From a virus (Duplodnaviria > Heunggongvirae > Uroviricota > Caudoviricetes): a stretch of DNA of 64,000 nucleotides. The notes beneath the pieces are model-generated. The model saw only the letters and a program-made list of their open reading frames with translations, was not told where the DNA came from and searched no databases. The position numbers were made by a program, and so were the translations under genes. Every line of letters begins with the position of its first letter. Position 1 is the stretch's first letter. The stretch is from IMG/VR virus record IMGVR_UViG_3300027974_000025; one strand, 5' to 3'. Below, piece by piece: positions 954-52,277 of this stretch.

Positions 954-2810
954 TTATTGTATTTCACAAGCACCACCTGCACAAGCTGCCACCTGACCAA
1001 AGTTTACAGTGTCATCTAATTCCATCACCTTAGTTAAGTCAAGGGAACTTAATGCATTAATACGTGTATTATATTCTTCTTCTGTAATGTCCTCGAAAGG
1101 AGCTTGCTTATAAGTATGATCAAATGCTGGTAATACAGAAAGACCATTATAGAATTCCTGATTAATCCACATCCAATCTCCTACAGTTTCCCACTCTCCT
1201 TCTCTAACAGATATTGTTGCTGAGACGTTATGTGTATTAGCCCCATTAATATGACCTGCATTAACCCATTCTGTAGAGAATCTCTTAACACGTTCTAATG
1301 TATCAAGTGCTGTCTCTGTACGTAGAATAGATCCTTCTGGTGCTTTAACAGGAATTCTTACACATATTGTATCCTTAGGACGTAACACATCATCTTCAAC
1401 TAGTTCAGGATGGTTAATCATTAAGTATTGTGCAAGGTCTTCTGTCTTGTTAAATCTCATTGTACGTAGATAGTGTGAAGCATGCCAAGCATGGATGCCA
1501 CTTGCTGTACCTAATACTAATGATGTGGTTCCTGAAGGCTTAATACATGTAACACGAGCTGCTTCATTTGTACCAATAATCTCTGTAACAAATTGATTAG
1601 TCTTTATTGCTATTTTAGCTGCCACTTCTAGATTGTATTGTAACACTTCACCAGATGCAATACCAGTCATACCAATGCCTAATAGAGCGTCTTTAAAGGT
1701 GGTCATCTTCCATATGTCACGTAGATAGTGGAAATCAGTAAAGCCTGCCTGTAATGTACCAAAGAATGCAGCTGCTGTCACTCTATCATTAAGATCCTCT
1801 TGACATGTGATGTCAGACACATTCACCTCACATAAGTTACAGAACTGATATGGTCTCAAAGCAATCTCACAACAAGGATTAGTTCCCCAATCTTTATCAT
1901 TAGTCCAATAGATACCTGGTTCACCAGAGCCAGAAGCTTCAATTCTTTTCCATAATGCTTGGAATTCCTCTTCACCTACTACTCCTCTCTCTAGAACAGC
2001 TGAGTTGTTAGCTCTACCTCTTTGCTCATTTAGTTCCCACCAGTTACCATACTTACATGTGATCATCTCTTCATCATCATGGCTGAACAAGGCAATCATT
2101 GCTGACCTTCTGATACCACCTGCTAACACAGAGTTAGCAATATGACATAAGATGTCATGACACTCTAATGATGTAAGCTTTGATCCATTCTCTTTACGCT
2201 CCATAATAGCATCAATGTGTGCTAAACAGATCTTTAATGGTTCAGAACCAGGTGCTTTACCACCAGCTGTTACAAGTCTTGCTCCTTTCTCACGAATAGC
2301 TCTAAAGTCAAACTTAGGCTTTTGACCACCTTCAAAATAAAACTTTAATAATACCTTCACTGCATCAGCCCAGCCCATGATAGAATCTTCAATAAGCCAG
2401 TTTCTGTGCTTAAATTTCTCATTTTTAACAATTGTAGGTAGTTGGTCTACATGGTGCTTTTGTACAGAATAACCTACACCTGTACCTCCTAACAATAGGA
2501 ACATAGTCTCACTGAAACTATAAATACTATCAATTGGTAGGAAACAACAGTTGTAGATTCTTGAGTTGTTCACCTCAGCTGCAACACCTGCAAACTGTAG
2601 AGCTCTCATAGAAGGTAACACTTTCTTTTTTCTGATAAATGTACCACTGTCTTTAATTTCTTTCTCTAGATTAGGATACTTCTTGATCATCATGCTCTCA
2701 TATCTATCTACTATCTCTTCCCATGTCTCTCTTCTTTTTAGCTCAGGGATGTACTTTGCGTACTTGCTAAAAATGGTAATCTTGCTCAAGGCTTCTAATC
2801 CTAAATCCAT
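954..2810 (-). CDS. nrdJ: ribonucleotide reductase, class II (adenosylcobalamin-dependent, NrdJ-like)
   Basis: 618 aa. Contains NPCCEIALRPYQFCNLCEVN, which matches the class II RNR active-site NPCGE...CNLGS motif. GGTGVGYS and the C-terminal Cys pair are also present. Confidence 0.8.
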   Translation of the reverse strand: MDLGLEALSKITIFSKYAKYIPELKRRETWEEIVDRYESMMIKKYPNLEKEIKDSGTFIRKKKVLPSMRALQFAGVAAEVNNSRIYNCCFLPIDSIYSFSETMFLLLGGTGVGYSVQKHHVDQLPTIVKNEKFKHRNWLIEDSIMGWADAVKVLLKFYFEGGQKPKFDFRAIREKGARLVTAGGKAPGSEPLKICLAHIDAIMERKENGSKLTSLECHDILCHIANSVLAGGIRRSAMIALFSHDDEEMITCKYGNWWELNEQRGRANNSAVLERGVVGEEEFQALWKRIEASGSGEPGIYWTNDKDWGTNPCCEIALRPYQFCNLCEVNVSDITCQEDLNDRVTAAAFFGTLQAGFTDFHYLRDIWKMTTFKDALLGIGMTGIASGEVLQYNLEVAAKIAIKTNQFVTEIIGTNEAARVTCIKPSGTTSLVLGTASGIHAWHASHYLRTMRFNKTEDLAQYLMINHPELVEDDVLRPKDTICVRIPVKAPEGSILRTETALDTLERVKRFSTEWVNAGHINGANTHNVSATISVREGEWETVGDWMWINQEFYNGLSVLPAFDHTYKQAPFEDITEEEYNTRINALSSLDLTKVMELDDTVNFGQVAACAGGACEIQ

Positions 2811-2830
2811 GTTAATTTGTGTTTTTTAGT

Positions 2831-2867
2831 TAAAAAATGAAGGGTCGCAAATTTACTGCAACCCTTC
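2831..2867 (-). terminator. rho-independent terminator (minus strand), upstream of the RNR gene
   Basis: Hairpin gaagggtcgca...tgcaacccttc (2839-2867). On the minus strand it is followed by a T6 run (plus 2832-2837 aaaaaa). Confidence 0.5.
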
Positions 2868-2893
2868 TTATAAACCAAGAGAATTAGAAAATT

Positions 2894-3145
2894 CTATCTA
2901 ACTAAATTTCTTATTTTCATTCCTAGCTCTGTATCATTTGGATGATCTCTAACTAATTTAGTTATTTCCTTGTCAAAGCTTATTAATTTCTGTAGATAAA
3001 GCGTGGCATCCATCAATTCTTCTTGTAAGTGTTTTAGATAGTTATCATGATTGTTTTGTTCAAGGGTAGTTCCATATTTGTTAATACCTATTTCACTACG
3101 CTGAGCATACTTCTCAATCACTTCTAATACTATTTGATCACTCAT
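2894..3145 (-). CDS. hypothetical protein, possibly a MazG-like nucleotide pyrophosphohydrolase
   Basis: 83-aa ORF. An EE-rich helix (LQEELMDATLYL) is reminiscent of MazG/DUF550. The match is weak. Confidence 0.3.
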   Translation of the reverse strand: MSDQIVLEVIEKYAQRSEIGINKYGTTLEQNNHDNYLKHLQEELMDATLYLQKLISFDKEITKLVRDHPNDTELGMKIRNLVR

Positions 3146-3516
3146 AACTTGTTATTTAAGATTTCAAATGCTTGTTCAATGGCTAATTTCTCAGCTTCTT
3201 TTCTAGTACTAGATGTTTCTGTTGATCCAACTTCTGCTACCTCACCCACTAGCGAATAGATAAATAACTTATTAGGAAAAGCTGTAACATTAATATAAAT
3301 ACCATTTTCATCAAAGATATCAAATAAGAATCTAGGATTGTTGTCTATAAATGTTGCAACATATTCACTATCAAACTGTTGTGATTTAACCATCTCTTTA
3401 AAGTCTTGTGGAATGTCAGAGTCTTCACTTAAAGACTCAATCATCTTTCCATAGTAAAACTCCTTAATAGCAAATGCTGCCTTAGGATAGGTCTCTAATA
3501 GTTCTGCTCCTGTCAT
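3142..3516 (-). CDS. hypothetical protein
   Basis: 124-aa ORF whose stop overlaps the next gene start, packed into the operon. Confidence 0.4.
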   Translation of the reverse strand: MTGAELLETYPKAAFAIKEFYYGKMIESLSEDSDIPQDFKEMVKSQQFDSEYVATFIDNNPRFLFDIFDENGIYINVTAFPNKLFIYSLVGEVAEVGSTETSSTRKEAEKLAIEQAFEILNNKL

Positions 3517-3719
3517 ATTCTTTGTTTTAATTGTTTACCACTTTCAGCCCACCAATCTCTTTCGAATCTCCATTCATTAGGTTCTGGATGGTGCTGCTTG
3601 TCTTCATCTACTGACTGTGCTAGGAGAGCATTCTTTTCACGCTCCATGTCACAGAATTTAATTACATCATCTATACCATATTTACTGATTAGATGGTTTA
3701 GTATATCACTATTATACAT
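3513..3719 (-). CDS. hypothetical protein
   Basis: 68-aa ORF with a 4-nt overlap with its neighbours. Confidence 0.35.
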   Translation of the reverse strand: MYNSDILNHLISKYGIDDVIKFCDMEREKNALLAQSVDEDKQHHPEPNEWRFERDWWAESGKQLKQRI

Positions 3720-4263
3720 ACTCTTTAATTTTATTAAGGTCTAACGTTTCAAATTCCTCAAAGAAACCATGCCAAACTTCTAAGTCTTCTGGAAGCTCCA
3801 TTCCTAGTTTATCCTCCCAAAACTTTACAAGATCTTCTGTCTTATTAAAGACTCTGTATTGCAAAGATATCTCATCTTTACGTATACTACCTTTCTTGAT
3901 CTGTACAACTTTGGGGAATATTCCTTGAAAAGCAGGAGAAGTTTTAGAATATTTGCCCTGTTTTATCAATTCTATATCACCTTTCAGTTTAGGATTGATT
4001 TCATAAACAACCACTACATAACCATCTTCATAGTCATAGTCATCTATAATGGACTTTGTTCTTTCATACTCCTTATCTAGAAAAACTTTAAATTTATCTA
4101 GATTAATTGGTTTAAAGAGAAGATATACAGCATTTTCATACTGTACATCTCTCATACCATCTTTTATATATCCATTTACAAATCCATTGTCTACCAACTT
4201 GTCTTTGCCAATGCTAAGAGTTGGGACAATGAATATGCTAGTGATTGTGTGTTTTCTCTCCAT
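3712..4263 (-). CDS. hypothetical protein
   Basis: 183-aa ORF tightly packed against its neighbours. Confidence 0.4.
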   Translation of the reverse strand: MERKHTITSIFIVPTLSIGKDKLVDNGFVNGYIKDGMRDVQYENAVYLLFKPINLDKFKVFLDKEYERTKSIIDDYDYEDGYVVVVYEINPKLKGDIELIKQGKYSKTSPAFQGIFPKVVQIKKGSIRKDEISLQYRVFNKTEDLVKFWEDKLGMELPEDLEVWHGFFEEFETLDLNKIKEYV

Positions 4264-5343
4264 TTAGCTTAGGTTTACAATGCCATTATTAATATAATTC
4301 TCTCTTGAAATGTTCCACACATCATTATCTAAAGTCCATTTAAGGTCTTCAATAAGTTGTGCAACACCTGGATATGGTCTTCCATTATGTTCAAAACCAT
4401 TAAGAGCATTGTCCATACTATCTACAGTCATTACATATACTAAAGGATTAGAATAATTAGTGCTGTCACATACAATGAATCTAGGATATAAAATAGTATA
4501 ATCTCCATAGCCCATTTCACTAGCCCAAGTCTCTGCAGCTTTGTGATAGAGGAATCCTTGGATGTAAGCTCTTCTGTAAAGATAATACTCACTATAGAAG
4601 TTCTCTACAGACCATGTACATTTAAGGTCATACACTTGGACAGTCTTTGACTTGTGATCTACAATCATCTTATCCATCATACTCTTGAACATGTGACCAA
4701 ACACTTCATATCCTTCCACCTGTAACTGATTGTATACAGAATACTGCTTATCATCTACTAAGTTTACAATCTCTGCTGTGGTAGGATTAGTTCTTAATTC
4801 TAGAACAATCTTCTCAGCGTTTTCTATCTCTTTGGTAGTCACCACTGTAAGCTTCTTAGATCTCACCTCTCTAATCTCTTTGTAATATATCTCAGCTTCA
4901 GATCCTATAAACTTCTTAAGAACAGCCTCTAATGTAATCTTGAAGCCTGCATCTGCATAAGCATCCTTACACATGTCTTCAAAGCTTCTAGTTATTGTAC
5001 CATCTTCAGCTGTAGCCTCCACTGTGTATTTATACAAAGCTTCTACAAAGTCCAACATCATAGCTGTTGGTGTAGACATACATGTAGATATGTGAAACTT
5101 CTCATCAAATAGATGGGGCTCCATTAGTAAAGTTTCTACAAGTCTACCTGTAGTGGCTGCTTTACTTTCTTCATCCTCAACCACTTGGTTAAGTATGTAT
5201 TTCTTATGGTACTTTTTCCTATCCATGGAAAAGTCCTTTAAACTAGAACTGCTGTCTAGATAAATTGCTCTATATTGAGCTTCTGTTTTCGTTTCCCCTT
5301 GTATCATTCTTCTTGTATTTATACTGTTGTAAAATTTGGTCAT
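4264..5343 (-). CDS. hypothetical protein, possibly a PD-(D/E)XK-family nuclease (recombination exonuclease)
   Basis: 359 aa. D...DLK (VYDLKCTW) is followed by a QxxxY-like motif (YIQGFLYHKA), as in RecB/Cas4-type nucleases. The assignment is weak. Confidence 0.3.
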   Translation of the reverse strand: MTKFYNSINTRRMIQGETKTEAQYRAIYLDSSSSLKDFSMDRKKYHKKYILNQVVEDEESKAATTGRLVETLLMEPHLFDEKFHISTCMSTPTAMMLDFVEALYKYTVEATAEDGTITRSFEDMCKDAYADAGFKITLEAVLKKFIGSEAEIYYKEIREVRSKKLTVVTTKEIENAEKIVLELRTNPTTAEIVNLVDDKQYSVYNQLQVEGYEVFGHMFKSMMDKMIVDHKSKTVQVYDLKCTWSVENFYSEYYLYRRAYIQGFLYHKAAETWASEMGYGDYTILYPRFIVCDSTNYSNPLVYVMTVDSMDNALNGFEHNGRPYPGVAQLIEDLKWTLDNDVWNISRENYINNGIVNLS

Positions 5344-5620: not shown

Positions 5621-5855
5621 TATACTGCCTGCTTAGGCACTTTGTTTTGAGATCTTCTGAAGTGAGTATCATCGTCTTACCTCTGTACTCAATTTCATAG
5701 TTTTCATTCTTTAGAATGCATTCTTTGACTCTGTCATCAAGTAGGTTTGCATACTTCTTGTCATGAAGCTTTAGAATTTGTCTTTTCATTTTTATCTGTT
5801 TTTGTTTTGTTATCGTGGCATGTAGTGCATAAACACTGTAAATTGTCCTGTTCAC
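5526..5855 (-). CDS. hypothetical protein (start uncertain)
   Basis: 109-aa ORF that overlaps the HNH gene unless an internal start is used. Confidence 0.3.
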   Translation of the reverse strand: MNRTIYSVYALHATITKQKQIKMKRQILKLHDKKYANLLDDRVKECILKNENYEIEYRGKTMILTSEDLKTKCLSRQYIEKPKYGEKPYHLLSYLWEPTKTTKDEKGTD

Positions 5856-6177
5856 AGAACAATCTTTCTACAAATCCTGGCAAGTCTTGAGCACAGTTTA
5901 GTGATCCTGCAGGAATGATGTGGTCCACATTAATCTGTTTCTGAGGGAACCAGTTCTTGCATGCTTTGCATTGATACTCAAACTTTTGTCTTTTGTTTGG
6001 TCCTTTATAATTACGCTTAGCTTTGAGCCTACATTCTGTAATAGGCTTCCACCATCTAGATTTCTGTCTTAATGTACTTCTAATAAAACTCCAAAAAGCA
6101 GATTCAGTCATTGTACCAGCATTTCTCACCTTAACTGCTTTAACTCTCTTAACTGCCTTTTTCTTTGCTGTTGCCAT
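5761..6177 (-). CDS. HNH endonuclease
   Basis: CKACKNWF...VDHIIPAGS...NLQCLCTTCHDNKT gives the canonical HNH (His-Me finger) motif with two CxxC pairs. Confidence 0.85.
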   Translation of the reverse strand: MATAKKKAVKRVKAVKVRNAGTMTESAFWSFIRSTLRQKSRWWKPITECRLKAKRNYKGPNKRQKFEYQCKACKNWFPQKQINVDHIIPAGSLNCAQDLPGFVERLFCEQDNLQCLCTTCHDNKTKTDKNEKTNSKAS

Positions 6178-6223: not shown

Positions 6224-7690
6224 TTAATCAATTTTTACAATTCTTTTAGATATTTCTTGCTTTATTTCATCAAGACTCTTAACAATTGTATAAACTTCTA
6301 CAGCAGACAAAGCAGGTAGGTTGAAATCATATTTCTTACGCTCTTCTGTAAACCCTTGTTTGGCCTTCTCAGCCAAGTTATCTAGTTCACGTACAGCATA
6401 AGACTCATCCAATTCTAATGTGTCAAAGTCTAGGTCATGTAAGATTTCTGTTGCTTCGTCAGTAGGAACAGTCATAATTGGTAAATACTCATAGCATCTA
6501 CCCTTAGACTCACCAATACCTACAACCTTCATTGGATTAATAAGTACAAGCACGCTTGTGTCACCACAACCTACATAATGAATCTCATCACTAGTGAAGT
6601 GTAAACCTTCAGCACCACAGTCGTCAGTATTCCATCTACATTGCTCCATAGGCATATCTACTGGTCTACCAATTCTAATGTCAAATGTTCTTGTGTGAGC
6701 ATCTGTATATCTATTCTCTGCTCTATTAGGCAAATCAAGATATAATTCAGTTAAGTTACCAATATTCTCACCATAATCAGACTCATGATATTTTGTCTGT
6801 GTACCAGTACCATTACATTCCCAACAGTCTTCGCTGTCATCATAATCATCATCTTCACAAGGAATAGTTCCAGAACCATCACAGCCAGCACATGTCTCTA
6901 GCTCATCAAATATAGATTTAGCAACCATTTTGTATTCACCATCCTTTAAGAATACTAAATACTCATCAGGTTTCTTCTTCCATACAGCCTTCACTTTGTT
7001 ATATGCATTTGACACAAAGTCTACAAGTTCAGTAGAACCATGTAATGTCACTACATTTCTCAAAGCTACAAAGAAGCCCTGTTTAGTGATACCAAAAGCA
7101 TTCTTTTTTAAGAAGTTAAATAGCTTGTCTGCTACCTCAGCTCTTGGATTCAAGCAACACCACATAAAGAATCTTTGTAAAGCAAGAAACTCGTCATTAT
7201 CTGTACCAAAGTTTCTACCAGTCACTTCTAAGAACTCTTCTACTAGTAATGGAGGTAAGCTTCTGTTGATGCCTTTTAAGTAAAGACTACCATCTTTCAT
7301 TTCAAACTGCTCAAGTGTAGCCAAATACTCAGCACCTCTTTGAACAGCCTTTACCTTTTCATACTCAGCTTCAGCCTTTCTTCTTTGGTCCTTAACTTCT
7401 TGTGAACTTACAAGATTAAATAGACAAGCTTCTGTTCTACAGTTTCTAGCAGCATTGAAATCATCTGCTGTTGCTGGAGATTTAGTAATGATGTTGCCAT
7501 CGTTCATTACAACAGTCAATGTATCATTAACCATTTTAATGTTTAGATAGGGCTTTCCTGAAGGATGATAAGAAGGGGCTACTTGCCCCTCCTCATTATC
7601 CAATTCATTAAAAGCCTGCTCAATTTTGTTTTCTACTACTTTTTCAATTGTGCGTTCAATAGCACTCTTAAACCATTTTAAGCTTAACAT
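6224..7690 (-). CDS. hypothetical protein with two DnaJ-type CxxCxGxG zinc-finger motifs
   Basis: 488 aa. It contains CAGCDGSGTIPC...DCWECNGTGTQ. It sits directly downstream of the Hsp90-like ATPase gene with a 12-nt gap. Confidence 0.5.
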   Translation of the reverse strand: MLSLKWFKSAIERTIEKVVENKIEQAFNELDNEEGQVAPSYHPSGKPYLNIKMVNDTLTVVMNDGNIITKSPATADDFNAARNCRTEACLFNLVSSQEVKDQRRKAEAEYEKVKAVQRGAEYLATLEQFEMKDGSLYLKGINRSLPPLLVEEFLEVTGRNFGTDNDEFLALQRFFMWCCLNPRAEVADKLFNFLKKNAFGITKQGFFVALRNVVTLHGSTELVDFVSNAYNKVKAVWKKKPDEYLVFLKDGEYKMVAKSIFDELETCAGCDGSGTIPCEDDDYDDSEDCWECNGTGTQTKYHESDYGENIGNLTELYLDLPNRAENRYTDAHTRTFDIRIGRPVDMPMEQCRWNTDDCGAEGLHFTSDEIHYVGCGDTSVLVLINPMKVVGIGESKGRCYEYLPIMTVPTDEATEILHDLDFDTLELDESYAVRELDNLAEKAKQGFTEERKKYDFNLPALSAVEVYTIVKSLDEIKQEISKRIVKID

Positions 7691-7701
7691 GTTTTGCTTT
7701 T

Positions 7702-10053
7702 TTAAATTGTTTGTAATTCTTCAATTGTGTCTTGTGTCAATGTCTCCTCTAAAGGAGCATCTTCTGTTAATTTGATTTTATAATGCTCTAAATTAACTTT
7801 ATGCTTGTGATATTTAAATAAATCAGCTATAGCAATCATCATTGGACCCTCTTTCTTAGACTCACGATAGCCCATTGTGTCTAGTATTACATTTAAGAAT
7901 GTTAACTTAGTAAACACTTCATTGACCTGCTTGTACACCAAATATGTAGGTTGGTCAAATAAGTTGTTTGCTATGGCATGTTCTATAATTGCTTTCCTAG
8001 TGTCATCATCGCAATAACTTCTATATTGGCTATTATGATAATTATGTAGTGTCTGTAATTTATCTGCCAAATCAGTAGATATCTCTCTAACTGTACTGAT
8101 TCTTTTAAATGTAGCACTATATGTTTCGATCAAATCCCTGATTAGAAATTCTGTAGCTACTGTTTTAAATGGTCTATTTTTACCTTCCATAAATTTATCT
8201 ATTGTTATCCAGTTATGTAAATCTGCTTTCTGTAAGTTATCATAGGTTGCTTGGGCAACTAATACAAATGATGCATGTTTATTAAAACAAGACCAAGCAT
8301 TGTCCATTTTCTTCTTATCAGATTCTTTAGCATAAACACTTAACTTATTCAATTTATGAATGTCTTCCATTTTGTATGTAGTAGGAACAAACTTACAATG
8401 TTGATCAGATAGATCTATTTGCATTTGTGTACCCACCTTACCAGAGAATTCACCTTTCATTCTTATCTTCTTAGGACCCTTTACAGATGCAGCTGCAACT
8501 GACATCTTCAGTCTCTTAGCCTTCTGAGCATCCTTAAATGATTGTGGAATTTCAATAGCATCTACATCTATAAAGTCTTTAGCATACAGACCCACTACAT
8601 ATTGGAACTCTTGAATAAGCTGTCTCCATTGAGCTTTAGGATACATTGATAAGTTTAATATAGAGTCATAATACTTAGCATAATCTACTTGACCACCTTT
8701 AGCTTTAAGTTTAAATGGTGATTTCTTAACAAAATATATCTGTTTATTATCTGGTAGAATAGTTCTTAGATAGTCTTGTTTACCTTTAGAAAGCTCATTC
8801 TCATAAATATACACACCACCAAAGTTATAACTTGTAAATTCTGAAATTCTTAGATACTCATGATAGTAACTTTTCATACTTTGAAACTTACCAGTAAATC
8901 TATATTTAAACTTGTATTCAGCAAGAATATACTCCTTGGCTTTTACAGCAAGTCTTTCTAAGTTCAACAACTTTATGCTATCTAGTTTAGGCTGTGCTAC
9001 AGGTATAGAAGAATGTACTAAAAGATCATCTATACAAACATCATCGTCTGTACCCTTGTACCAAGACTTAATATGTTTGCTGTTTCTACTGTAGAATTGC
9101 ATAATAGCTTTGATATCACTTTGTGTAGTGATGGCTTCATTAAACTTGTTCATGAACACATCAGCCACTGCAGCTATCTTGTTAAGAATAACTTGCTTAG
9201 CTTCTTGTGTATATCTAAGAGCTTCTCTGTTTGGTGTAGGGAACAATCCATCACTAAGACTGAATCTCAAAGCCATTTTGATACCTATTCTACTTATACC
9301 AAGTTTATCCCAATCAATAGGATAACTAACATTGTCCAAGCATAAATGCATATCATTGTTAGTAGCTAAGCTAGAATATTGAAAGTGTTCTGCTCTGTGA
9401 ATTATGAAATCATTATCCACTCTTCCCCATGAGCTGTCCACCTCAAAATAAACATTCTCAAAATAAGCCAATTGTTCTTTGATTTTGTTAGTGAAATTGT
9501 ATCTATCAGAATAGTTCACTGGAACAATCACTTTTACACCATTTGGTTCTGCTGTAGGCTTCTCATACAAAAGGTCAATACTGTTTGTATCTTCTCCTTC
9601 GTACATCATATACTTACGTTCCATATAATCTTTTCTAGCTATAAAGTAGAAGCTAGAGCTATATGCCAATGGAGCCTTGAAACCAAGACCCATCATGCCC
9701 AATTCTGTGTTGCTATTACGCTTGGTTGACTTACCATACTTACTGATGATATTTACTACATCATCTGCATCTAAGCCAATACCAAAGTCTTCAACAGCAA
9801 ATTCATACGTATCTGCCTGACTGTTTCTTTTGAATGAAACAATAATAGGCTCGTCACATCCAGCTCTTCTGTGACTATCTAGTGCATTAGATGCACATTC
9901 TCTGATAGTAGAGCCTATTGAATCTGAATATAGATTCTTACTTAACATCTGCATCAATACTTGTGCAGAATCTAAGTCTAGTGACATTTTCACAGTTTCC
10001 TGTGTGGTTCCTTCCTGAAGGATGTGTGATTCTGTTTGTTTTTCGAGTATCAT
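7702..10053 (-). CDS. Hsp90/HtpG-like GHKL ATPase domain protein
   Basis: 783 aa. It carries the Bergerat-fold motifs N-box IRECASNALDSHRR, G1 box EDFGIGLDADDVVNIISKYGKSTK and G2 box ELGMMGLGFKAPLAYSSSFYF. These align closely with the Hsp90 motifs ELISNASDALDK, DTGIGMT...IAKSGTK and IGQFGVGFYSA. Confidence 0.6.
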   Translation of the reverse strand: MILEKQTESHILQEGTTQETVKMSLDLDSAQVLMQMLSKNLYSDSIGSTIRECASNALDSHRRAGCDEPIIVSFKRNSQADTYEFAVEDFGIGLDADDVVNIISKYGKSTKRNSNTELGMMGLGFKAPLAYSSSFYFIARKDYMERKYMMYEGEDTNSIDLLYEKPTAEPNGVKVIVPVNYSDRYNFTNKIKEQLAYFENVYFEVDSSWGRVDNDFIIHRAEHFQYSSLATNNDMHLCLDNVSYPIDWDKLGISRIGIKMALRFSLSDGLFPTPNREALRYTQEAKQVILNKIAAVADVFMNKFNEAITTQSDIKAIMQFYSRNSKHIKSWYKGTDDDVCIDDLLVHSSIPVAQPKLDSIKLLNLERLAVKAKEYILAEYKFKYRFTGKFQSMKSYYHEYLRISEFTSYNFGGVYIYENELSKGKQDYLRTILPDNKQIYFVKKSPFKLKAKGGQVDYAKYYDSILNLSMYPKAQWRQLIQEFQYVVGLYAKDFIDVDAIEIPQSFKDAQKAKRLKMSVAAASVKGPKKIRMKGEFSGKVGTQMQIDLSDQHCKFVPTTYKMEDIHKLNKLSVYAKESDKKKMDNAWSCFNKHASFVLVAQATYDNLQKADLHNWITIDKFMEGKNRPFKTVATEFLIRDLIETYSATFKRISTVREISTDLADKLQTLHNYHNSQYRSYCDDDTRKAIIEHAIANNLFDQPTYLVYKQVNEVFTKLTFLNVILDTMGYRESKKEGPMMIAIADLFKYHKHKVNLEHYKIKLTEDAPLEETLTQDTIEELQTI

Positions 10054-10057
10054 GTGT

Positions 10058-10417
10058 CTAGTAGTTTACTGTAATATTCAATTCTTGTAGTATTTCTTTT
10101 GCTTCTAGTATATCTTCTATTACCTTTTCATCTGTAATGTTATATCTGTTCAATTTAAGTATTCTGGTATCTCTTGGTGTATTTAGAAAGTCTTTCCAAA
10201 GACATTTAATTGTAAATGGACCTGCTTTTTCAGCACCAATACTAGTCACTCTGTTATTATGACGTTCTTTACAATGTCTAGGGGTAGTGTATCTATAATA
10301 TTGAACTGTACCACCTGCTCCTCTACCAAAATAAATACCAACAGTGAAGTCATTACCATTACTTACTGCTATTAAATCTCCTTTTTGGATGTCTCCTCCA
10401 TGTTTTACTGTATACAT
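10058..10417 (-). CDS. hypothetical protein
   Basis: 119-aa ORF. Confidence 0.4.
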   Translation of the reverse strand: MYTVKHGGDIQKGDLIAVSNGNDFTVGIYFGRGAGGTVQYYRYTTPRHCKERHNNRVTSIGAEKAGPFTIKCLWKDFLNTPRDTRILKLNRYNITDEKVIEDILEAKEILQELNITVNY

Positions 10418-23810: not shown

Positions 23811-24005
23811 CTATAATGTCTTGACCATAACCATAATAGAATAACTATTACTCTCACCATACATCCAATTAACTTCTATAACTCTATATATCTTATAACT
23901 ATCATAAGGAAGATGTATATTGTCTCCTAGTCTAGGTATATGAATGATATCTCTATCTACCCATAGTTCATGATCGTCATCTGTTCTGATTGCTAATTGT
24001 GGCAT
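23811..24005 (-). CDS. hypothetical early protein
   Basis: 64-aa ORF. Confidence 0.3.
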   Translation of the reverse strand: MPQLAIRTDDDHELWVDRDIIHIPRLGDNIHLPYDSYKIYRVIEVNWMYGESNSYSIMVMVKTL

Positions 24006-24234
24006 AATATCTATTTAATGCTATATATATTGTATTGTATAGCGTGAATTAATGATGTGTTAATATGTGGGAATAAGTGGTAATTAAGTACACAGCTCTT
24101 CTCACATTCACACAGAATATATTGAGAATCAATGTGTTAGTCAGTGTTATTCCCACCCAAACGTGTACATTACACCCACCCTTATATATAATAAGAGAGC
24201 AACGTCCTTTATTAGAACGTTACTCTCTATTAGT

Positions 24235-24618
24235 TTAGAATGCTACTGACAACAAGCTGTTGATTGCAGATTCTGTTAAGCCTGCACTGCTTGCTTGTGC
24301 TTTGATTTCCTGTTGGATTTCAATGTCAAGCAATGTGCTGTCAGCGTGAGCTTGCTTAATCTCTTCACGAGACTTGAATGCACTCAAAGCTGTAAGTCTA
24401 TCAGCTGTGCCAATAGTCTCGCCCTTCTCATTCAATTGGTTGATTTGCTTCATCTGACCAATTGCGTAGAATGGGAATGTTACGTCAGCGTTGCTCTTCC
24501 AACTTAAGGCTTCCATCTGTCTGCCAAAAATGTGGACTCTCTCGCCCAAAGCTGTGTAACCACTGAAGTTGCCATTTGCAGTAAAACTGCCATTGTTGAT
24601 AACGTAATTTTTTGTCAT
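24235..24618 (-). CDS. hypothetical protein, first gene of the leftward early arm
   Basis: 127-aa ORF beginning right at the divergent switch region. Confidence 0.45.
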   Translation of the reverse strand: MTKNYVINNGSFTANGNFSGYTALGERVHIFGRQMEALSWKSNADVTFPFYAIGQMKQINQLNEKGETIGTADRLTALSAFKSREEIKQAHADSTLLDIEIQQEIKAQASSAGLTESAINSLLSVAF

Positions 24619-24770
24619 CTGTTTGTTTTTTAATTTGTTAATTAATTAATTAGGGGGGATGTGTCGTTCCCCCAATTTGTATGGGGGGTTGTGATATGGA
24701 GAAGGCTACACTCCCATGGACACAAAGGGTGTGGGGGGCTGGGAAAATTTTGGGCTATAAGCAGGGGAAT

Positions 24771-24784
24771 GTTCCACGTGGAAC
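24771..24784. promoter_or_regulatory. perfect 14-bp palindrome GTTCCACGTGGAAC (candidate operator) in the divergent switch region
   Basis: Read directly from the sequence. The flanks extend it to about an 18-bp imperfect palindrome. It lies between the oppositely transcribed gene arms. Confidence 0.45.
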
Positions 24785-24936
24785 GTTTGTTACCTTTTTA
24801 TATAAATATGTAACAAGTTTGGTCAAGGGATGGCTTTACAAAAATAAATTTGGTGGGTATAAAGATTTACCATTATCTTTGGGGGGGATTTAGGGGGGGC
24901 CCTATCTAATACCTCTCTATTAATAAAAGCTTAGAC

Positions 24937-25185
24937 ATGGAAATGATTTTAACATTGGTTGGTTGTATTGTTGGTCTCTTGAGTGTAATTGTTTGTATAT
25001 GGGGATTCACCCATTTTGATGAATGGGAAATAGGGATAGAGTTTCTACCTAAAGACTACAACAACTTTGAACTAGGTGTCACTAATAGAAACTATGAGTT
25101 GACAGATGGAGGATTGGAACAAGAGCTTAGAATAGGTGTGTTGTTATTCACCTTTTTAATCATCTTCAGGAGATTTGATGCATAA
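24937..25185 (+). CDS. small membrane protein
   Basis: 82 aa with a TM-like N-terminus (ILTLVGCIVGLLSVIVCIWGF) and a TM-like C-terminus. Confidence 0.3.
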   Translation: MEMILTLVGCIVGLLSVIVCIWGFTHFDEWEIGIEFLPKDYNNFELGVTNRNYELTDGGLEQELRIGVLLFTFLIIFRRFDA

Positions 25186-25263
25186 TATAGCATTAAGTTT
25201 TACAATAACTAAATTAGTTATTTGTAGATCGTCCAGATATACATATCTTTGTATTAACTAATT

Positions 25264-25614
25264 ATGGAAGCAAAACCAATTGTACAACGACTAAAAACTT
25301 CAATAGAAGATGTCATTCCTATGGCTGAGAAGTATTACAAGATATTGTCAGCTGTGAATGAATTGAAGCTTACAAAGAGGGAAATACAATTGATAGCCTT
25401 TGCTGCTATAAAAGGGAACATCTCTTATGCTAACATACGTAAGGAGTTTTGTGAATTGTACAATAGTACGTCCCCAGCGATAAACAACATTATTTCCAAA
25501 TTAAAGAAGATGGGGATATTTGTGAAGGATGGTACAAAGGTGAAGGTGAACCCCATCATTCTGCTCAACTTCGAAAAGGATATAGTGCTACAAATTACAT
25601 TAACACATGGATAA
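25264..25614 (+). CDS. hypothetical protein, possibly a DNA-binding regulator
   Basis: 116-aa ORF, the first gene of the rightward arm. Confidence 0.4.
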   Translation: MEAKPIVQRLKTSIEDVIPMAEKYYKILSAVNELKLTKREIQLIAFAAIKGNISYANIRKEFCELYNSTSPAINNIISKLKKMGIFVKDGTKVKVNPIILLNFEKDIVLQITLTHG

Positions 25615-25993
25615 GCCTATAAGTATGTCTGTCAAGGACTACCTAGTTAGGACCCTTGCTGTGAAGATGATGATCTCTGAAAAGACGATTGAGACAGTGG
25701 TAAATCACCAGTTTCAATCTGCCAACGAAGCGATGGACACAAATAACAGTATTGAAATATCTGGGTTTGGGAAGTTTTACTTTAATGAGAAGAAAGCTAA
25801 GAAACGTCTAGAAGACTTGACTAGGAAGAAAAACCTAATGCTTGAGTTCCTAGCCAGTGCTGAAACCTCTGAACAAAAGAAACGTTCCTCTCAGGTGACA
25901 CTAGAAAAAACAGAAGCTCTGATCAATCTTTTAAAAAGTAAAATTACATATGAAGATCAACTTCTCTCAGATTTACGAGGGCTGGAAGAATAA
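25607..25993 (+). CDS. HU/IHF-like DNA-binding protein
   Basis: SVKDYLVRTLAVKMMISEKTIETVV...SIEISGFGKFYFNEKKAKKR follows the HU pattern (...LVGFGTFxVxxRxAR). Confidence 0.5.
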   Translation: MDKPISMSVKDYLVRTLAVKMMISEKTIETVVNHQFQSANEAMDTNNSIEISGFGKFYFNEKKAKKRLEDLTRKKNLMLEFLASAETSEQKKRSSQVTLEKTEALINLLKSKITYEDQLLSDLRGLEE

Positions 25994-26012
25994 CCTGTTC
26001 CCAGCTGATGAC

Positions 26013-40506: not shown

Positions 40507-43500
40507 ATGTCTTGTTTACCAGGAATGAACTGTGGAGGATATCAGTCAAATGATTGCTGTCCAGAAGTTAATTCAAATTGCGTAGATTATAGCGGACCCA
40601 ATTTACCTTGCTCAGGTGTACAAACACATGACTGCCTAACAACTGTTATTGAAAAGATAGATGACAAGTTATGTAGAGTGGGTAATGGTACGTCTGGTAC
40701 TTCTGGTTCTTCAGGTTCAACTTATGGAACAGCAGGAACTACAGGTACATCTGGTCGTGATGGTACAAGTGGTACTAGTGGAACTAGTGGCTCTACAGGT
40801 ACAACAGGAACAAGTGGTAGATCTGGTACCTCAGGAACTACAGGCACATCAGGTGGATCTGGTACTTCAGGAACTTCTGCAACAAGTGGATCTAGTGGTA
40901 GAAATGGATCAAGTGGTACGTCTGGTACAAATGGATCATCTGGTACTGCTGGAACTAGTGGAAGAGCTGGTACTACTGGTACAAGTGGTTCATCTGGTAC
41001 AACAGGAACAAGTGGATCAAGCGGTACAACTGGAACCTCTGGTACAACAGGTACAGACGGTTCTTCAGGAACATCAGGTTCTAGTGCTTCTTCAGGCACA
41101 TCAGGAACAACTGGTACAGATGGTTCATCTGGTACAACAGGTTCTTCTGGTATTTCAGGTGACAGATATTTTACTACATCTGCAGATTCACATACATTAG
41201 GTACTGCAGGAACTCTCACTGTAGGAACAAACTTAGCCTACACTCCTGGTCAATCAATTATTATTGCTCATAGTGCCACTGAATATCAAGTGAGCACATT
41301 ACTAACATATAATGCTGGTACAGGTGCCATGTCTTTTAGTGCACCTTCTACAACAGTAGGTTCTGGTACATTTACTGCGTGGAATGTAAATTTACAGGGA
41401 GCTGCAGGTGGTGATGGATCTAGTGGTACATCTGGCTCTGCTGGTACATCAGCATCTTCAGGAACAAGTGGTTCTACAGGTACAAGTGGAACTAGTGGTT
41501 CTACTGGTACTAGTGGTACATCTGGTACTTCTGGATCTAGTGGAACAACAGGAACCTCAGGAACAAATGGAACATCTGGTTCTACAGGAACTTCTGGCAC
41601 AAGTGGGACATCTGGTTCTTCAGGCACAACTGGTACAAGTGGAACATCTGGCACTTCTGGCTCAACTGGTACAACTGGTACATCTGGTACAGCAGGAACA
41701 TCTGGAACTAGTGGTTCTACAGGAACAACTGGTACAAGTGGTACTAATGGTACTTCAGGAACATCAGGCTCAACTGGAACCACTGGTACAAGTGGTACAT
41801 CAGGGTCAACTGGTACAACTGGAACAAGTGGTACTAATGGAACAAGTGGTACTAGTGGTTCTAGTGGTTCTAGTGGAACATCTGGCACATCTGGAACAAG
41901 TGGTAGTACAGGAACTACAGGTACCTCAGGTACAACTGGTACAAGTGGAACTAGCGGTTCTACAGGTACAAGTGGTACTTCAGGTACAAGTGGTTCTACA
42001 GGTACAAGTGGTTCTACAGGAACATCAGGAACAAGTGGTACAACTGGAACTAGTGGTACAAATGGTACTAGTGGAAGTAGTGGTACAGCAGGTACAAATG
42101 GTACTAGTGGATCAACAGGAACTTCTGGAACATCTGGTTCTACAGGAACTTCTGCTAGTTCAGGACAATCTGGTACATCAGGTAGTTCTGGTACATCTGG
42201 TACAGCAGGTACATCAGGATCTGTAGGTACATCAGGTACAACTGGAACTAGTGGAACCTCAGGTACAAGTGGTTCAACAGGATCTTCAGGCACATCAGCT
42301 TCTTCAGGTACATCAGCTTCTAGTGGTTCTAGTGGATCTTCTGGAACTAGTGGGACATCAGGTACTAGTGGTACAACTGGTTCAAGTGGAACAACAGGTA
42401 CTTCTGGTACATCAGGTACAAGTGGTTCAACAGGTACCTCAGGTACAACTGGTACAAGTGGTACATCTGGAATAAATGGTACTGCTGGAACTTCTGGTAC
42501 TAATGGATCTAGTGGTACATCAGGTATCTCTGGTAATATATATGCAACAACATCTTCTACTAACCTAACAATAGGTACAGGTACTAAAAACCTTACTGTT
42601 GCAACAGGTTTATCTTATACGGTTGGACAAAGTGCTATTATAGCAAATAGTGTAGGTAATGACATGACTGGCCCTGTTATTTCATATAACAGCGGAACAG
42701 GTGCCCTATCTGTAAATGTATTAACTACTAATGGTAGTGGTACATATTCTACATGGAGTGTTAACTTGGCTGGTGCCTCTGGTGGTACTGGTTCTTCTGG
42801 AACTTCTGGATCTTCTGGTTCTACAGGAACTAGTGGTACTTCTGGATCAACAGGAACCTCTGGTACAAGTGGAACTAGTGGTACATCAGGGTCAACTGGT
42901 ACAACTGGAACTAGTGGTACTTCAGGTACTAGTGGTACATCAGGATCAACTGGAACATCAGGAACTTCTGGTACTAGTGGTTCTACTGGTACATCTGGAC
43001 TTACTGGAACTGCAGGTACAAGTGCTTCAGCAGGAACTAGTGGATCAAATGGATCTTCTGGTTCTTCTGGTACAACTGGAACCTCAGGGACAAGTGCTTC
43101 TTCTGGATCAAGTGGTACAGCAGGAACTTCTGCTTCTTCTGGTACTTCTGGATCTAGTGGTTCATCTGGTTCATCTGGAACAACTGGTACTACAGGAACT
43201 AGTGGAATTAATGGAACAAGAGGAACAAGTGGAACTACAGGTACCTCAGGTACAACTGGTACAAGTGGTTCAACAGGAACAACAGGTACCAGTGGAACTA
43301 GTGGTATAAATGGAACTAATGGTATTAATGGAACAAGTGGAACCTCTGGTACAAATGGTACTAGTGGTACAGCTGGTACTAATGGAAGTAGTGGAACAAA
43401 TGGTACTAGTGGAATAAATGGAACAAGTGGTACAACTGGAACTAGTGGTACAACAGGTACCAGTGGAACAAGTGGATCTAGTGGTACAGTTGGTACAAGT

Positions 43501-51302: not shown

Positions 51303-52277
51303 ATGGCATACTACTACAAGTACAATTTTGTCTCACCTGAACCAGTTTATTCAACTGTTAAAGAAGAGTTAAAATCTTATTTTGACACAGGAGCAGTTGA
51401 TGATTTGTTGTTCCCTACTTACTTAGACAAGTGTCTACAGAAGTTGGGCAGATCAAGTTATGTTATTGCTGAACAAACATTAGATATTTCTGGTTATGAA
51501 GCTAGACTTCCTGACAACTTCTTTGCTGTTAGAGAAGCTTGGATGTGTACAGAGTTACCATCTAACTATCCATATCAGACAGCTAATTCATTCTATTCTC
51601 AAGCTGCTACACAAACAACTATTCAAGTGAGTCCTATTGTAACAGACTGTACTATTCCTAGTCCATGTTGTGGCAATGTAGGATGTGATGGTAGCTGTAT
51701 GCCTGAGATTATACAAACTGTATACAAAACTAATCAACAGATTGCTAGAGGAATAAGAAAACAATATCTATTAAAACCAGGTAATATATCTTGTCAAAAC
51801 AGATGTGATGTAACTTATACAGATGCTTGGCAGTTTTATACAAGTGTGCCTCCTGTACGTGAGTTCACTCCAGGAAGTGCTGGTTATGATAGCTTTGACA
51901 TTAGAGATAATAAGTTTGTTACTAACTTTAGTTCTGGTGTTGTTCATATGATATTCTATGCTACAGACTATGATGCTGTTGGTAATCAATTGATTCCTGA
52001 CAACTATCGTATAAGAGAGTTTGTAGAAGCCTTTATTAAATACAAGGTGTTTGAGACATTGTCTAATCAAATCAATGATGAAACTTTCAATCAAATACAG
52101 CAGAAGTTAGTATACTACAAACAGCTACATGATGAAGCATTCATTATGGCTAACATTGAAATAAAGAAGCAAGACGCATGGACTAAACAAAGAAGAGTAA
52201 GAAATGACTTACAACGCTTTGCACAATATGAATTACCAAATAGAAGCTCAAGATATGGCAGTGGATGGAATAGATAA
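51303..52277 (+). CDS. virion/tail structural protein (hypothetical)
   Basis: 324 aa with a Cys cluster CTIPSPCCGNVGCDGSCMPE. Confidence 0.4.
   Translation: MAYYYKYNFVSPEPVYSTVKEELKSYFDTGAVDDLLFPTYLDKCLQKLGRSSYVIAEQTLDISGYEARLPDNFFAVREAWMCTELPSNYPYQTANSFYSQAATQTTIQVSPIVTDCTIPSPCCGNVGCDGSCMPEIIQTVYKTNQQIARGIRKQYLLKPGNISCQNRCDVTYTDAWQFYTSVPPVREFTPGSAGYDSFDIRDNKFVTNFSSGVVHMIFYATDYDAVGNQLIPDNYRIREFVEAFIKYKVFETLSNQINDETFNQIQQKLVYYKQLHDEAFIMANIEIKKQDAWTKQRRVRNDLQRFAQYELPNRSSRYGSGWNR

What the first reader, a model, noticed from the sequence alone, without database searches (positions are those of the whole stretch)
6224..10053. Hsp90-like GHKL ATPase paired with a DnaJ-type zinc-finger protein inside a phage replication module
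ORF 7702..10053 carries all three Bergerat-fold ATP-binding motifs. Their spacing and sequence look much more like Hsp90/HtpG than like the GyrB/topoisomerase proteins expected in a phage replication cluster. The tell-tale stretches are DFGIGLDADDVVNIISKYGKSTK and GMMGLGFKAPLAYSSSF, against Hsp90 DTGIGMTKADL..IAKSGTK and GQFGVGFYSA. The gene immediately downstream (6224..7690) contains two CxxCxGxG repeats, the signature of the DnaJ cysteine-rich client-binding domain. A co-encoded Hsp90-like ATPase plus a J-protein-like partner in a phage genome is not a described module. It could be a dedicated chaperone pair for the giant fibres or capsid. It could also be a divergent MORC/Hsp90-family ATPase acting on DNA.
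Basis: partly seen in the sequence, partly recalled or inferred. Interest (0 to 1): 0.75.

Follow-up and report, generated by a model that had tools for sequence, protein, structure and literature searches.

The report
Phage rIIA–rIIB counter-defence gene pair
The two genes are this marine crAss-like phage's copies of rIIA and rIIB, a classic and widespread phage gene pair. The "Hsp90-like" look of the first protein is real but typical of rIIA, and the "DnaJ-like" zinc motif in the second is a small clade-specific insertion.

Summary
Both ORFs and every quoted motif are present as described. The 783-aa protein is a full-length rIIA homologue (PHROG 612, E=4e-56; T4 rIIA, E=5e-18). The 488-aa protein is an rIIB homologue (PHROG rIIB families; collinear with T4 rIIB). 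rIIA directly followed by rIIB occurs in T4, in Vibrio, Rhodococcus and Dinoroseobacter phages, in a gut crAss-like phage, and in 29 of 29 evaluable related metagenomic loci. Natural rIIA-rIIB fusions also exist. The module is therefore already described.

With a deep alignment, AlphaFold gives a confident GHKL domain plus transducer-like domain. Its best solved matches are Hsp90-family proteins, with MORC, topoisomerase and MutL ATPase modules close behind. A nearly invariant "SRE.L" loop resembles the Hsp90 catalytic-arginine loop.

The DnaJ reading fails. There is no J domain and only two CxxCxGxG repeats. They sit in a hypervariable acidic loop. The repeats are kept in the close clade (down to about 58% identity) but are absent from 104 of 106 more distant family representatives.

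The most likely role is an ATP-driven rII counter-defence module. The mechanism is inferred, not shown. Verdict: new member of a known kind, low to moderate interest.

The parts
7702..10053 (-). rIIA homologue, 783 aa
   Evidence: PHROG 612 'RIIA lysis inhibitor', E=4e-56, covering residues 1-732 against profile positions 1-707 of 725. BLASTP to T4 rIIA, E=5e-18. tblastn hits in 2595 phage records, those listed being mostly annotated rIIA. BFVD Foldseek hits to dozens of named RIIA proteins.
9469..9975 (-). rIIA GHKL (Bergerat) ATP-binding domain, residues ~27-195. Motifs: E52/N56/D59, D89-G91-G93, S109/K111, G119/G122/G124, G172.
9019..9468 (-). rIIA second domain, transducer-like / Hsp90-middle-like, residues ~196-345
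9217..9240 (-). rIIA loop P272-T-P-N-R276-E277-A-L279, candidate gamma-phosphate-sensing arginine loop
   Evidence: R276 is kept in 118 of 122 rows and E277 in 115 of 122. Motif compared: HtpG 'NVSREILQ', T4 rIIA 'APSREALS'. The best local hhalign match of domain 2 within HtpG falls on this loop, but weakly (E=0.048). HMMER aligns the loop with TopoVI-B 'SAGKE'.
7705..9018 (-). rIIA C-terminal region, residues 346-783, mixed alpha/beta then helical
6224..7690 (-). rIIB homologue, 488 aa
   Evidence: PHROG rIIB families 609, 11221 and 36818, E=7e-15 to 1e-6. BLASTP to T4 rIIB in two collinear blocks, E=6e-7 and 1e-4. Alignment with five annotated rIIBs. tblastn hits to crAss-like 'protector from prophage-induced early lysis'.
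6467..6709 (-). rIIB conserved core, residues 328-408 (YTDxHT...G341...G362-L-H364...P386...K396-x-R398...Y402)
   Evidence: These columns are invariant in the six-sequence alignment. H364 and P386 are invariant and G341, G362, L363, K396 and R398 nearly invariant (at least 90%) in the 112-sequence alignment.
6710..7051 (-). About 110-residue module (residues 214-327) absent from T4, Vibrio, Rhodococcus, Dinoroseobacter and IAS-virus rIIB
   Evidence: In 106 family representatives it is an 85-100-aa module containing a hypervariable loop.
6803..6892 (-). Acidic zinc-knuckle insert, residues 267-296: two CxxCxGxG repeats, probably one Cys4 site
   Evidence: Both CxxC are kept in 119 of 120 close homologues and in all 29 IMG/VR loci plus L007. 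They are absent in 104 of 106 distant representatives. Pfam Anti-TRAP 17.2 bits and DnaJ_CXXCXGXG 15.2 bits are both below threshold.

Best explanation
The locus is the rII module of an uncultured marine crAss-like phage. rIIA (7702..10053) and rIIB (6224..7690) are co-transcribed within the early/replication gene block.

Shown: both proteins are homologous to T4 rIIA and rIIB. The gene order and adjacency are conserved. rIIA has an intact GHKL ATP site followed by a transducer-like domain. The solved structures nearest to this two-domain unit are Hsp90-family proteins. rIIB carries a clade-specific Cys4 knuckle in a hypervariable acidic loop.

Inferred: rIIA works as an ATP-driven clamp like Hsp90 and other GHL ATPases. 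ATP would bind the N-domain, and Arg276 from the second domain would complete or sense the gamma-phosphate site. rIIA would act together with rIIB, since the two are fused in some phages. By analogy with divergent rII modules tested in coliphages, the pair would be dispensable for basic growth. It would protect the infection from host or prophage abortive-infection systems of the RexAB kind. The zinc knuckle is most likely a small structural or protein-contact element added to a surface loop that evolves under an arms race. It is not a DnaJ-type client-binding domain.
For: Identity:
- PHROG rIIA E=4e-56 over the full length, and rIIB families E=7e-15.
- T4 rIIA E=5e-18 and T4 rIIB in two collinear blocks.
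- 2595 phage records hold an rIIA homologue.
- BFVD structural hits to named RIIA proteins of KVP40, pf16, 44RR2.8t and others.

Pairing:
- rIIA is directly followed by rIIB in T4, Vibrio phage 1.170.O, Rhodococcus phage Dorin, Dinoroseobacter phage R7L and IAS virus.
- The same holds in contig L007 and in 29 of 29 evaluable IMG/VR loci.
- Fusion proteins exist: RB43 'RIIA-RIIB', 1049 aa, and phrog_609, which matches both proteins.

ATPase:
- All Bergerat residues are at least 98% conserved.
- The AF2 model has mean pLDDT 77, above 90 in the N-terminal half.
- R276 and E277 are conserved.
- The Hsp90 Arg380 role is taken from PMC4879513.

Function:
- Divergent rIIAB modules (<40% identity) of T4, MM02, EdH4, SUSP1 and N4 all counter lambda RexAB and are otherwise dispensable (PMC11879866).
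- RIIB also triggers a gasdermin/CARD defence system (PMC10312443).
- rIIA is described as a GHKL domain plus a variable C-terminus in a counter-defence role (PMC7824862).

Zinc knuckle as an insertion.
Against: There is no experimental information for this phage or its probable Bacteroidota host, and no Rex-like target is known there. The molecular mechanism of rII is unsolved even in T4, so the clamp and counter-defence steps are analogy.

The rIIB match to T4 is limited to about 115 residues at the BLAST level. The window protein also lacks the N-terminal HTH-like segment seen, below threshold, in T4 rIIB.

Confidence: 0.85

Rival explanations
1. A dedicated Hsp90/DnaJ-like chaperone pair that folds the giant collagen-like fibre or the capsid.
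For: Hsp90 family is the best structural match. Two CxxCxGxG repeats are present. The same genome encodes a 1993-aa collagen-like fibre.
Against: No J domain is found. Pfam DnaJ_CXXCXGXG scores 15.2 bits against a 32.7 cut-off. The zinc motif is absent from nearly all homologues beyond the close clade. The genes sit among early/replication genes on the strand opposite the structural block. The homologous rII genes are dispensable for growth, and so for assembly, in five coliphages (PMC11879866). Similarity to Hsp90 is detected only in the N-domain at the sequence level. NCBIfam HSP90 scores 26.7 bits against a 455 cut-off.
Confidence: 0.03
2. rIIA/rIIB is a DNA-acting GHKL machine, like MORC, TopoVI-B or MutL, that remodels or guards replicating phage DNA. 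Protection from abortive infection would then be a by-product of hiding the DNA-protein intermediates that host sensors detect.
Confidence: 0.1
3. A divergent type II topoisomerase ATPase subunit with an accessory zinc-finger subunit.
Against: There is no Toprim domain and no GyrA-like partner. hhalign to GyrB gives 21% probability. The full-length profile match is to rIIA, not to topoisomerase.
Confidence: 0.01

Closest known systems
Bacteriophage T4 rIIA / rIIB (rII locus; 'protector from prophage-induced early lysis', counter-defence against lambda RexAB)
   Same: Both proteins are homologous. The order rIIA then rIIB on one strand is the same. The GHKL motifs and the PSRE-type loop in rIIA are conserved. 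The rIIB core is conserved: GLH, P386, K396, R398.
   Different: Identity to T4 rIIA is 22%. rIIB has an extra module of about 110 aa carrying a Cys4 knuckle and lacks the T4 N-terminal HTH-like segment. The phage is crAss-like and probably infects Bacteroidota, not a T4-like myovirus. Function is untested.
rIIA/rIIB pair of crAss-like phages (IAS virus gp030/gp031; cr116_1) and rIIA of marine Virus NIOZ-UU157
   Same: The only phage-database tblastn hits for the rIIB are crAss-like. The neighbourhood is the same: primase, rIIA, rIIB, UDG, exonuclease, RNR. The NIOZ-UU157 protein is the best structural match: 39% identity, E=1e-71.
   Different: IAS-virus rIIB has no insertion module and no zinc knuckle. 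Its annotated rIIA lacks the GHKL N-terminus.
Hsp90 family (HtpG, TRAP1, GRP94)
   Different: No sequence similarity is detected beyond the N-domain. No Hsp90 C-terminal dimerisation domain is detectable. The NCBIfam HSP90 score is far below its cut-off. It is not a member of the Hsp90 family proper.
MORC / TopoVI-B / MutL / GyrB-ParE GHL ATPase modules
   Different: There is no CW, Toprim, endonuclease or coiled-coil element. The sensor residue is Arg, not Lys. The C-terminal 440 residues are unrelated.
DnaJ cysteine-rich domain / anti-TRAP zinc knuckle
   Same: Two CxxCxGxG repeats, enough for one Cys4 zinc site as in anti-TRAP.
   Different: Scores are below threshold. There is no J domain and there are two repeats rather than four. 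The segment is a clade-specific insert in an rIIB loop.

Membership tests
rIIA (T4 rIIA family, PHROG 612) | Full-length profile similarity to rIIA proteins | tested here: met
   phrog_612 E=4.2e-56, residues 1-732 against profile 1-707 of 725. T4 rIIA BLASTP E=5e-18. BFVD hits to named RIIA.
rIIA (T4 rIIA family, PHROG 612) | N-terminal GHKL ATPase domain with intact motifs I-IV | tested here: met
rIIA (T4 rIIA family, PHROG 612) | Encoded immediately upstream of rIIB on the same strand | tested here: met
   11-nt gap in the window. The same arrangement occurs in five phage lineages and in 29 of 29 evaluable related loci.
rIIA/rIIB module | Conditionally required to overcome prophage/host exclusion (RexAB-type), otherwise dispensable | not testable with these tools
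   Known for T4, MM02, EdH4, SUSP1 and N4 (PMC11879866). No data exist for this phage.
rIIB (T4 rIIB family) | Similarity to the rIIB conserved core | tested here: met
   phrog_609 E=7.4e-15, phrog_11221 and phrog_36818. T4 rIIB BLASTP E=6e-7 plus a collinear block at 1e-4. In the six-sequence alignment G341, M346, G362, L363, H364, P386, K396, R398 and Y402 are invariant.
rIIB (T4 rIIB family) | N-terminal HTH-like segment as in T4 rIIB | tested here: not met
   T4 rIIB gives sub-threshold HTH_7/HTH_28 hits. The window protein gives none and is gapped there. The Dorin, R7L and IAS rIIBs are also gapped in the T4/Vibrio N-terminal segment, so this is not a universal family feature.
Hsp90 family | Bergerat N-domain closest to Hsp90 among GHKL proteins | tested here: met
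Hsp90 family | Middle domain with catalytic-loop arginine (yeast Arg380) contacting the ATP gamma-phosphate | tested here: inconclusive
   An 'SRE.L' motif is conserved (R276 in 118 of 122 rows) and resembles HtpG 'NVSREILQ'. The hhalign hit on that loop has E=0.048 only. No model coordinates were available to measure the distance to the ATP site.
Hsp90 family | Full-length family membership (middle and C-terminal dimerisation domains, family HMM above cut-off) | tested here: not met
   NCBIfam 'HSP90 family protein' scores 26.7 bits against a 455 cut-off. hhalign alignments stop at HtpG residue ~184.
DnaJ/Hsp40 | J domain with HPD motif | tested here: not met
   No J-domain (DnaJ family) hit at E<=1 in the Pfam scan.
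DnaJ/Hsp40 | Cysteine-rich domain with four CxxCxGxG repeats (two zinc centres) above the family threshold | tested here: not met
   Only two repeats. PF00684 scores 15.2 bits against 32.7 and Anti-TRAP 17.2 against 32.
   Present in 2 of 106 full-length 50%-cluster representatives and in none of five annotated rIIBs. Conserved only within the clade at 58% identity or above.
GyrB/ParE type IIA topoisomerase ATPase subunit | Toprim domain and family-level similarity | tested here: not met
   No Toprim hit. hhalign to GyrB gives 21% probability.
MORC / TopoVI-B (GHKL plus S5-fold transducer) | GHKL plus transducer module superposable as a unit | tested here: inconclusive

The most novel reading that the evidence does not exclude
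rIIA may be a genuine Hsp90-clade split-active-site ATPase, in which a middle-domain arginine (R276) completes the N-domain ATP site, rather than a generic GHKL protein. rIIB would then be its obligate partner or client adaptor. In this marine crAss-like clade the adaptor would have acquired a DnaJ/anti-TRAP-type zinc knuckle that binds a host defence protein. The 70-year-old rII system would then be a phage-encoded chaperone-like machine that disarms abortive-infection sensors.
Probability: 0.15. Interest if true: 0.7.

Novelty: new member of a known kind. Interest (0 to 1): 0.3.

Why it matters
The finding itself is mostly a correct re-identification. What looked like an undescribed chaperone pair is the classic rII locus, here in an abundant uncultured marine crAss-like phage.

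Two side results have some value. First, structure prediction with a deep alignment shows that rIIA carries a complete GHKL plus transducer module. Its nearest solved relatives are Hsp90 proteins, and it has a nearly invariant SRE.L arginine loop. That gives concrete point mutants (E52, R276) for a system whose mechanism is still unknown. No paper in the searched library links phage rIIA to Hsp90.

Second, rIIB has a hypervariable surface loop where different lineages insert either acidic segments or a Cys4 knuckle. That pattern is expected for a protein caught between counter-defence and recognition by host immunity.

Tried and rejected
- Megablast of the locus against 50,697 phage records found no match. 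The phage has no close cultured relative.
- Single-sequence AlphaFold of rIIA was useless (pLDDT 32). It was repeated with a 150-sequence alignment.
- Sequence searches of the PDB found no rIIA or rIIB structure. An rIIB profile gave zero hits even at E<=10.
- hhalign of full rIIA profiles against HtpG did not extend past the N-domain. A domain-2-only profile hit the HtpG catalytic loop only weakly.
- The search for related loci with the broad rIIB alignment failed because no block was conserved enough. The single protein was used instead.
- The topoisomerase-subunit reading was rejected. The DnaJ reading was rejected.
- Neither protein has a transmembrane segment: the maximum 19-residue Kyte-Doolittle mean is 0.91 for rIIA and 1.19 for rIIB.
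- Literature searches for rIIA with Hsp90, or with 'histidine kinase-like ATPase', returned nothing relevant.
Full report
**Observation**

The two ORFs are real and sit as described. ORF 7702..10053 (minus strand, 783 aa) is followed after 11 nt by ORF 6224..7690 (minus strand, 488 aa). The quoted ATPase strings are at residues 89-111 and 119-135, and motif I (E52, N56, D59) precedes them. The second protein carries C267xxC270xGxG and C289xxC292xGxG inside a very acidic stretch, with 15 Asp/Glu and one Lys/Arg in 48 residues. Two such motifs never arose in 20,000 shuffles of the protein. The genes lie in a minus-strand block of replication and nucleotide-metabolism genes. These are ribonucleotide reductase, an exonuclease, an HNH endonuclease, UDG, DUF932, primase, helicases and DNA polymerase.

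**What the genes are**

PHROG profiles assign the 783-aa protein to 'RIIA lysis inhibitor'. The hit is phrog_612, E=4e-56, covering residues 1-732 against 1-707 of a 725-position profile. The 488-aa protein matches three rIIB families, with E from 7e-15 to 1e-6.

Direct comparison with phage T4 confirms both assignments.
- rIIA aligns over residues 1-343 at E=5e-18.
- rIIB aligns in two collinear blocks: query 181-213 with T4 185-217, and query 328-402 with T4 221-301.
- tblastn finds rIIA homologues in 2595 phage records; those listed are mostly annotated rIIA.
- The rIIB finds only crAss-like phages (IAS virus, cr116_1), where the gene is annotated 'protector from prophage-induced early lysis'.

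The order rIIA then rIIB, adjacent on one strand, recurs widely. It is seen in T4, Vibrio phage 1.170.O, Rhodococcus phage Dorin, Dinoroseobacter phage R7L and IAS virus. It is also seen in a 120-kb metagenomic contig and in 29 of 29 related IMG/VR loci that include upstream DNA. Fusions exist as well. RB43 has a 1049-aa 'RIIA-RIIB' protein, and the 1055-position phrog_609 matches both window proteins. The claim that this is 'not a described module' is therefore wrong. It is one of the oldest known phage loci.

**The phage**

The phage is crAss-like. It has a Crassvirus muzzle protein. Its terminase is nearest to those of Leptolyngbya phage Lbo-JY46, Cellulophaga phages and crAss-like phages. 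Its gene neighbourhood matches that of IAS virus. It has no close cultured relative. It is nonetheless common in metagenomes, with more than 1600 rIIA and 2400 rIIB homologues at 90% clustering.

**The Hsp90 question**

A single-sequence AlphaFold run failed. I therefore built a diverse alignment using a five-lineage rIIA profile. The resulting model has mean pLDDT 77, above 90 over most of residues 40-300.

- Foldseek against the PDB returned only Hsp90-family chains in the top 50: TRAP1, Hsc82, GRP94 and Hsp90 client complexes, with E down to 2e-14.
- The isolated Hsp90 N-domain superposes at 3.0 A with 20% identity.
- Under identical conditions, the rIIA profile matches E. coli HtpG at 96% (E=2.8e-9), MutL at 90% and GyrB at 21%.
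- A profile search of PDB sequences gives TopoVI-B (6.9e-9, motif region only) and TRAP1 (4e-8, whole N-domain).

The region after the GHKL domain is a transducer-type domain of the kind shared by Hsp90-M, MORC, MutL and GyrB. The tools do not cleanly separate 'Hsp90 middle' from 'S5 transducer'.

One family-level clue favours Hsp90. It is a loop with consensus [AP]-S-R-E-x-L, which reads PNREAL in the window and APSREALS in T4. R276 is kept in 118 of 122 sequences. The loop resembles HtpG 'NVSREILQ', the catalytic loop whose arginine (yeast Arg380) contacts the ATP gamma-phosphate (PMC4879513). The supporting alignments are weak: hhalign E=0.048, and a secondary HMMER stretch that places the loop on TopoVI-B 'SAGKE'. 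I therefore treat the equivalence as an inference.

rIIA is not a member of the Hsp90 family proper. Sequence similarity stops at the N-domain, and the NCBIfam HSP90 score is 26.7 bits against a 455 cut-off. That rIIA combines an N-terminal GHKL domain with a variable C-terminus is already in the literature (PMC7824862). Some database entries for rIIA-like proteins are auto-named 'HSP90 family'.

**The DnaJ question**

This part fails. Pfam finds no J domain. The DnaJ_CXXCXGXG score is 15.2 bits and the Anti-TRAP score 17.2 bits, both about half the required score. There are two repeats, not four.

Alignment with five annotated rIIBs shows that the window protein is collinear with them throughout. 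The exception is an extra segment of about 110 residues (214-327), which none of the five has.

An exhaustive search of 1.8 billion representatives found 1029 relatives. In the 106 full-length ones among the 150 listed, this segment is an 85-100-aa module with a hypervariable loop. Only two representatives (P0121, P0122) carry the cysteine pair. Other lineages place long acidic, cysteine-free inserts at the same spot.

Within the close clade the four cysteines are well kept. They are present in 119 of 120 homologues at 82-95% identity and in all 29 IMG/VR loci down to 58% identity. The site is therefore probably a real Cys4 zinc knuckle, but it is a young, clade-specific decoration.

**Mechanism**

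Shown:
- homology to rIIA and rIIB;
- a conserved operon and the existence of fusions;
- an intact ATP site, with all Bergerat residues at least 98% conserved;
- a two-domain GHL-type module;
- no transmembrane segments.

Inferred: rIIA is an ATP-driven clamp whose second-domain arginine senses or completes the nucleotide site, and it acts together with rIIB. From published work, divergent rII modules (<40% identity) from five coliphage genera all neutralise lambda RexAB and are otherwise dispensable (PMC11879866). RIIB is itself sensed by a gasdermin/CARD system (PMC10312443). A hypervariable rIIB surface loop fits such an arms race.

The main rival concerns mechanism rather than identity. 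It holds that the module acts on replicating DNA in the manner of MORC or TopoVI-B. The replication-module context, the MORC2 superposition (4.3 A) and the sub-threshold HTH of T4 rIIB leave this open. A virion-assembly chaperone role and a topoisomerase role are not supported.

**Verdict**

The Hsp90-like fold holds. The DnaJ partner and the claim of an undescribed module do not. This is a new member of a known kind, with a minor new variant feature: the zinc knuckle in rIIB. Interest is low to moderate. It rests mainly on the testable active-site prediction for the long-unexplained rII system.

Noticed in passing
window 40507-46488 (+): A 1993-aa ORF with about ten collagen triple-helix stretches (Pfam Collagen, E=1e-134) and a C-terminal endosialidase-chaperone (Peptidase_S74) domain just below threshold. 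The region has 43% GC against about 35% elsewhere. It is probably a giant collagen-like tail fibre.
   Followed up: partly
window 52204-57111 (+): A 1635-aa protein matches the Crassvirus muzzle protein (PF25731, E=1e-28). Together with the terminase relatives (Leptolyngbya phage Lbo-JY46, Cellulophaga phi17:2/phi4:1, gut crAss-like phages) this marks the window as a crAss-like phage.
   Followed up: partly
window 5761-6177 (-): An HNH endonuclease ORF (PHROG 1985, E=1.5e-23) lies immediately downstream of rIIB. It may be a mobile homing-type insertion between rII and the exonuclease gene.
   Followed up: no
window 10058-10417 (-): A 119-aa ORF with no family match ends 4 nt before the rIIA start. 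An ORF of similar size (123 aa) occupies the same place in related contig L007. It might belong to the rII operon, by analogy with T4 rIIA.1.
   Followed up: no
L006 (IAS virus NC_049978) 1777-4983: The crAss-like IAS-virus 'rIIA' (gp030, 410 aa) lacks the GHKL N-terminus, and about 1 kb of unannotated DNA lies upstream. Its rIIB translation contains in-frame X positions. This suggests stop-codon recoding or a mis-annotated or split gene.
   Followed up: no
window 7691-7701 and 10054-10070: There is no Shine-Dalgarno-like purine run ahead of the rIIA or rIIB start codons, and no tRNA genes occur in the whole 64 kb. The lack of an SD-like run fits a Bacteroidota-type host translation signal, from general knowledge.
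   Followed up: no
rIIB homologues P0218, P0220, P0223, P0235, P0129, P0190 (loop equivalent to window residues 255-310): Other lineages of the same rIIB family carry long acidic, cysteine-free insertions of 40-70 aa at the position where this clade has the zinc knuckle. The position is a hotspot for insertions.
   Followed up: partly
window ~24000-26000: The coding strand switches from the minus-strand replication block to the plus-strand structural block, and the GC-skew sign changes at the same place. This may be a divergent promoter or origin region.
   Followed up: no
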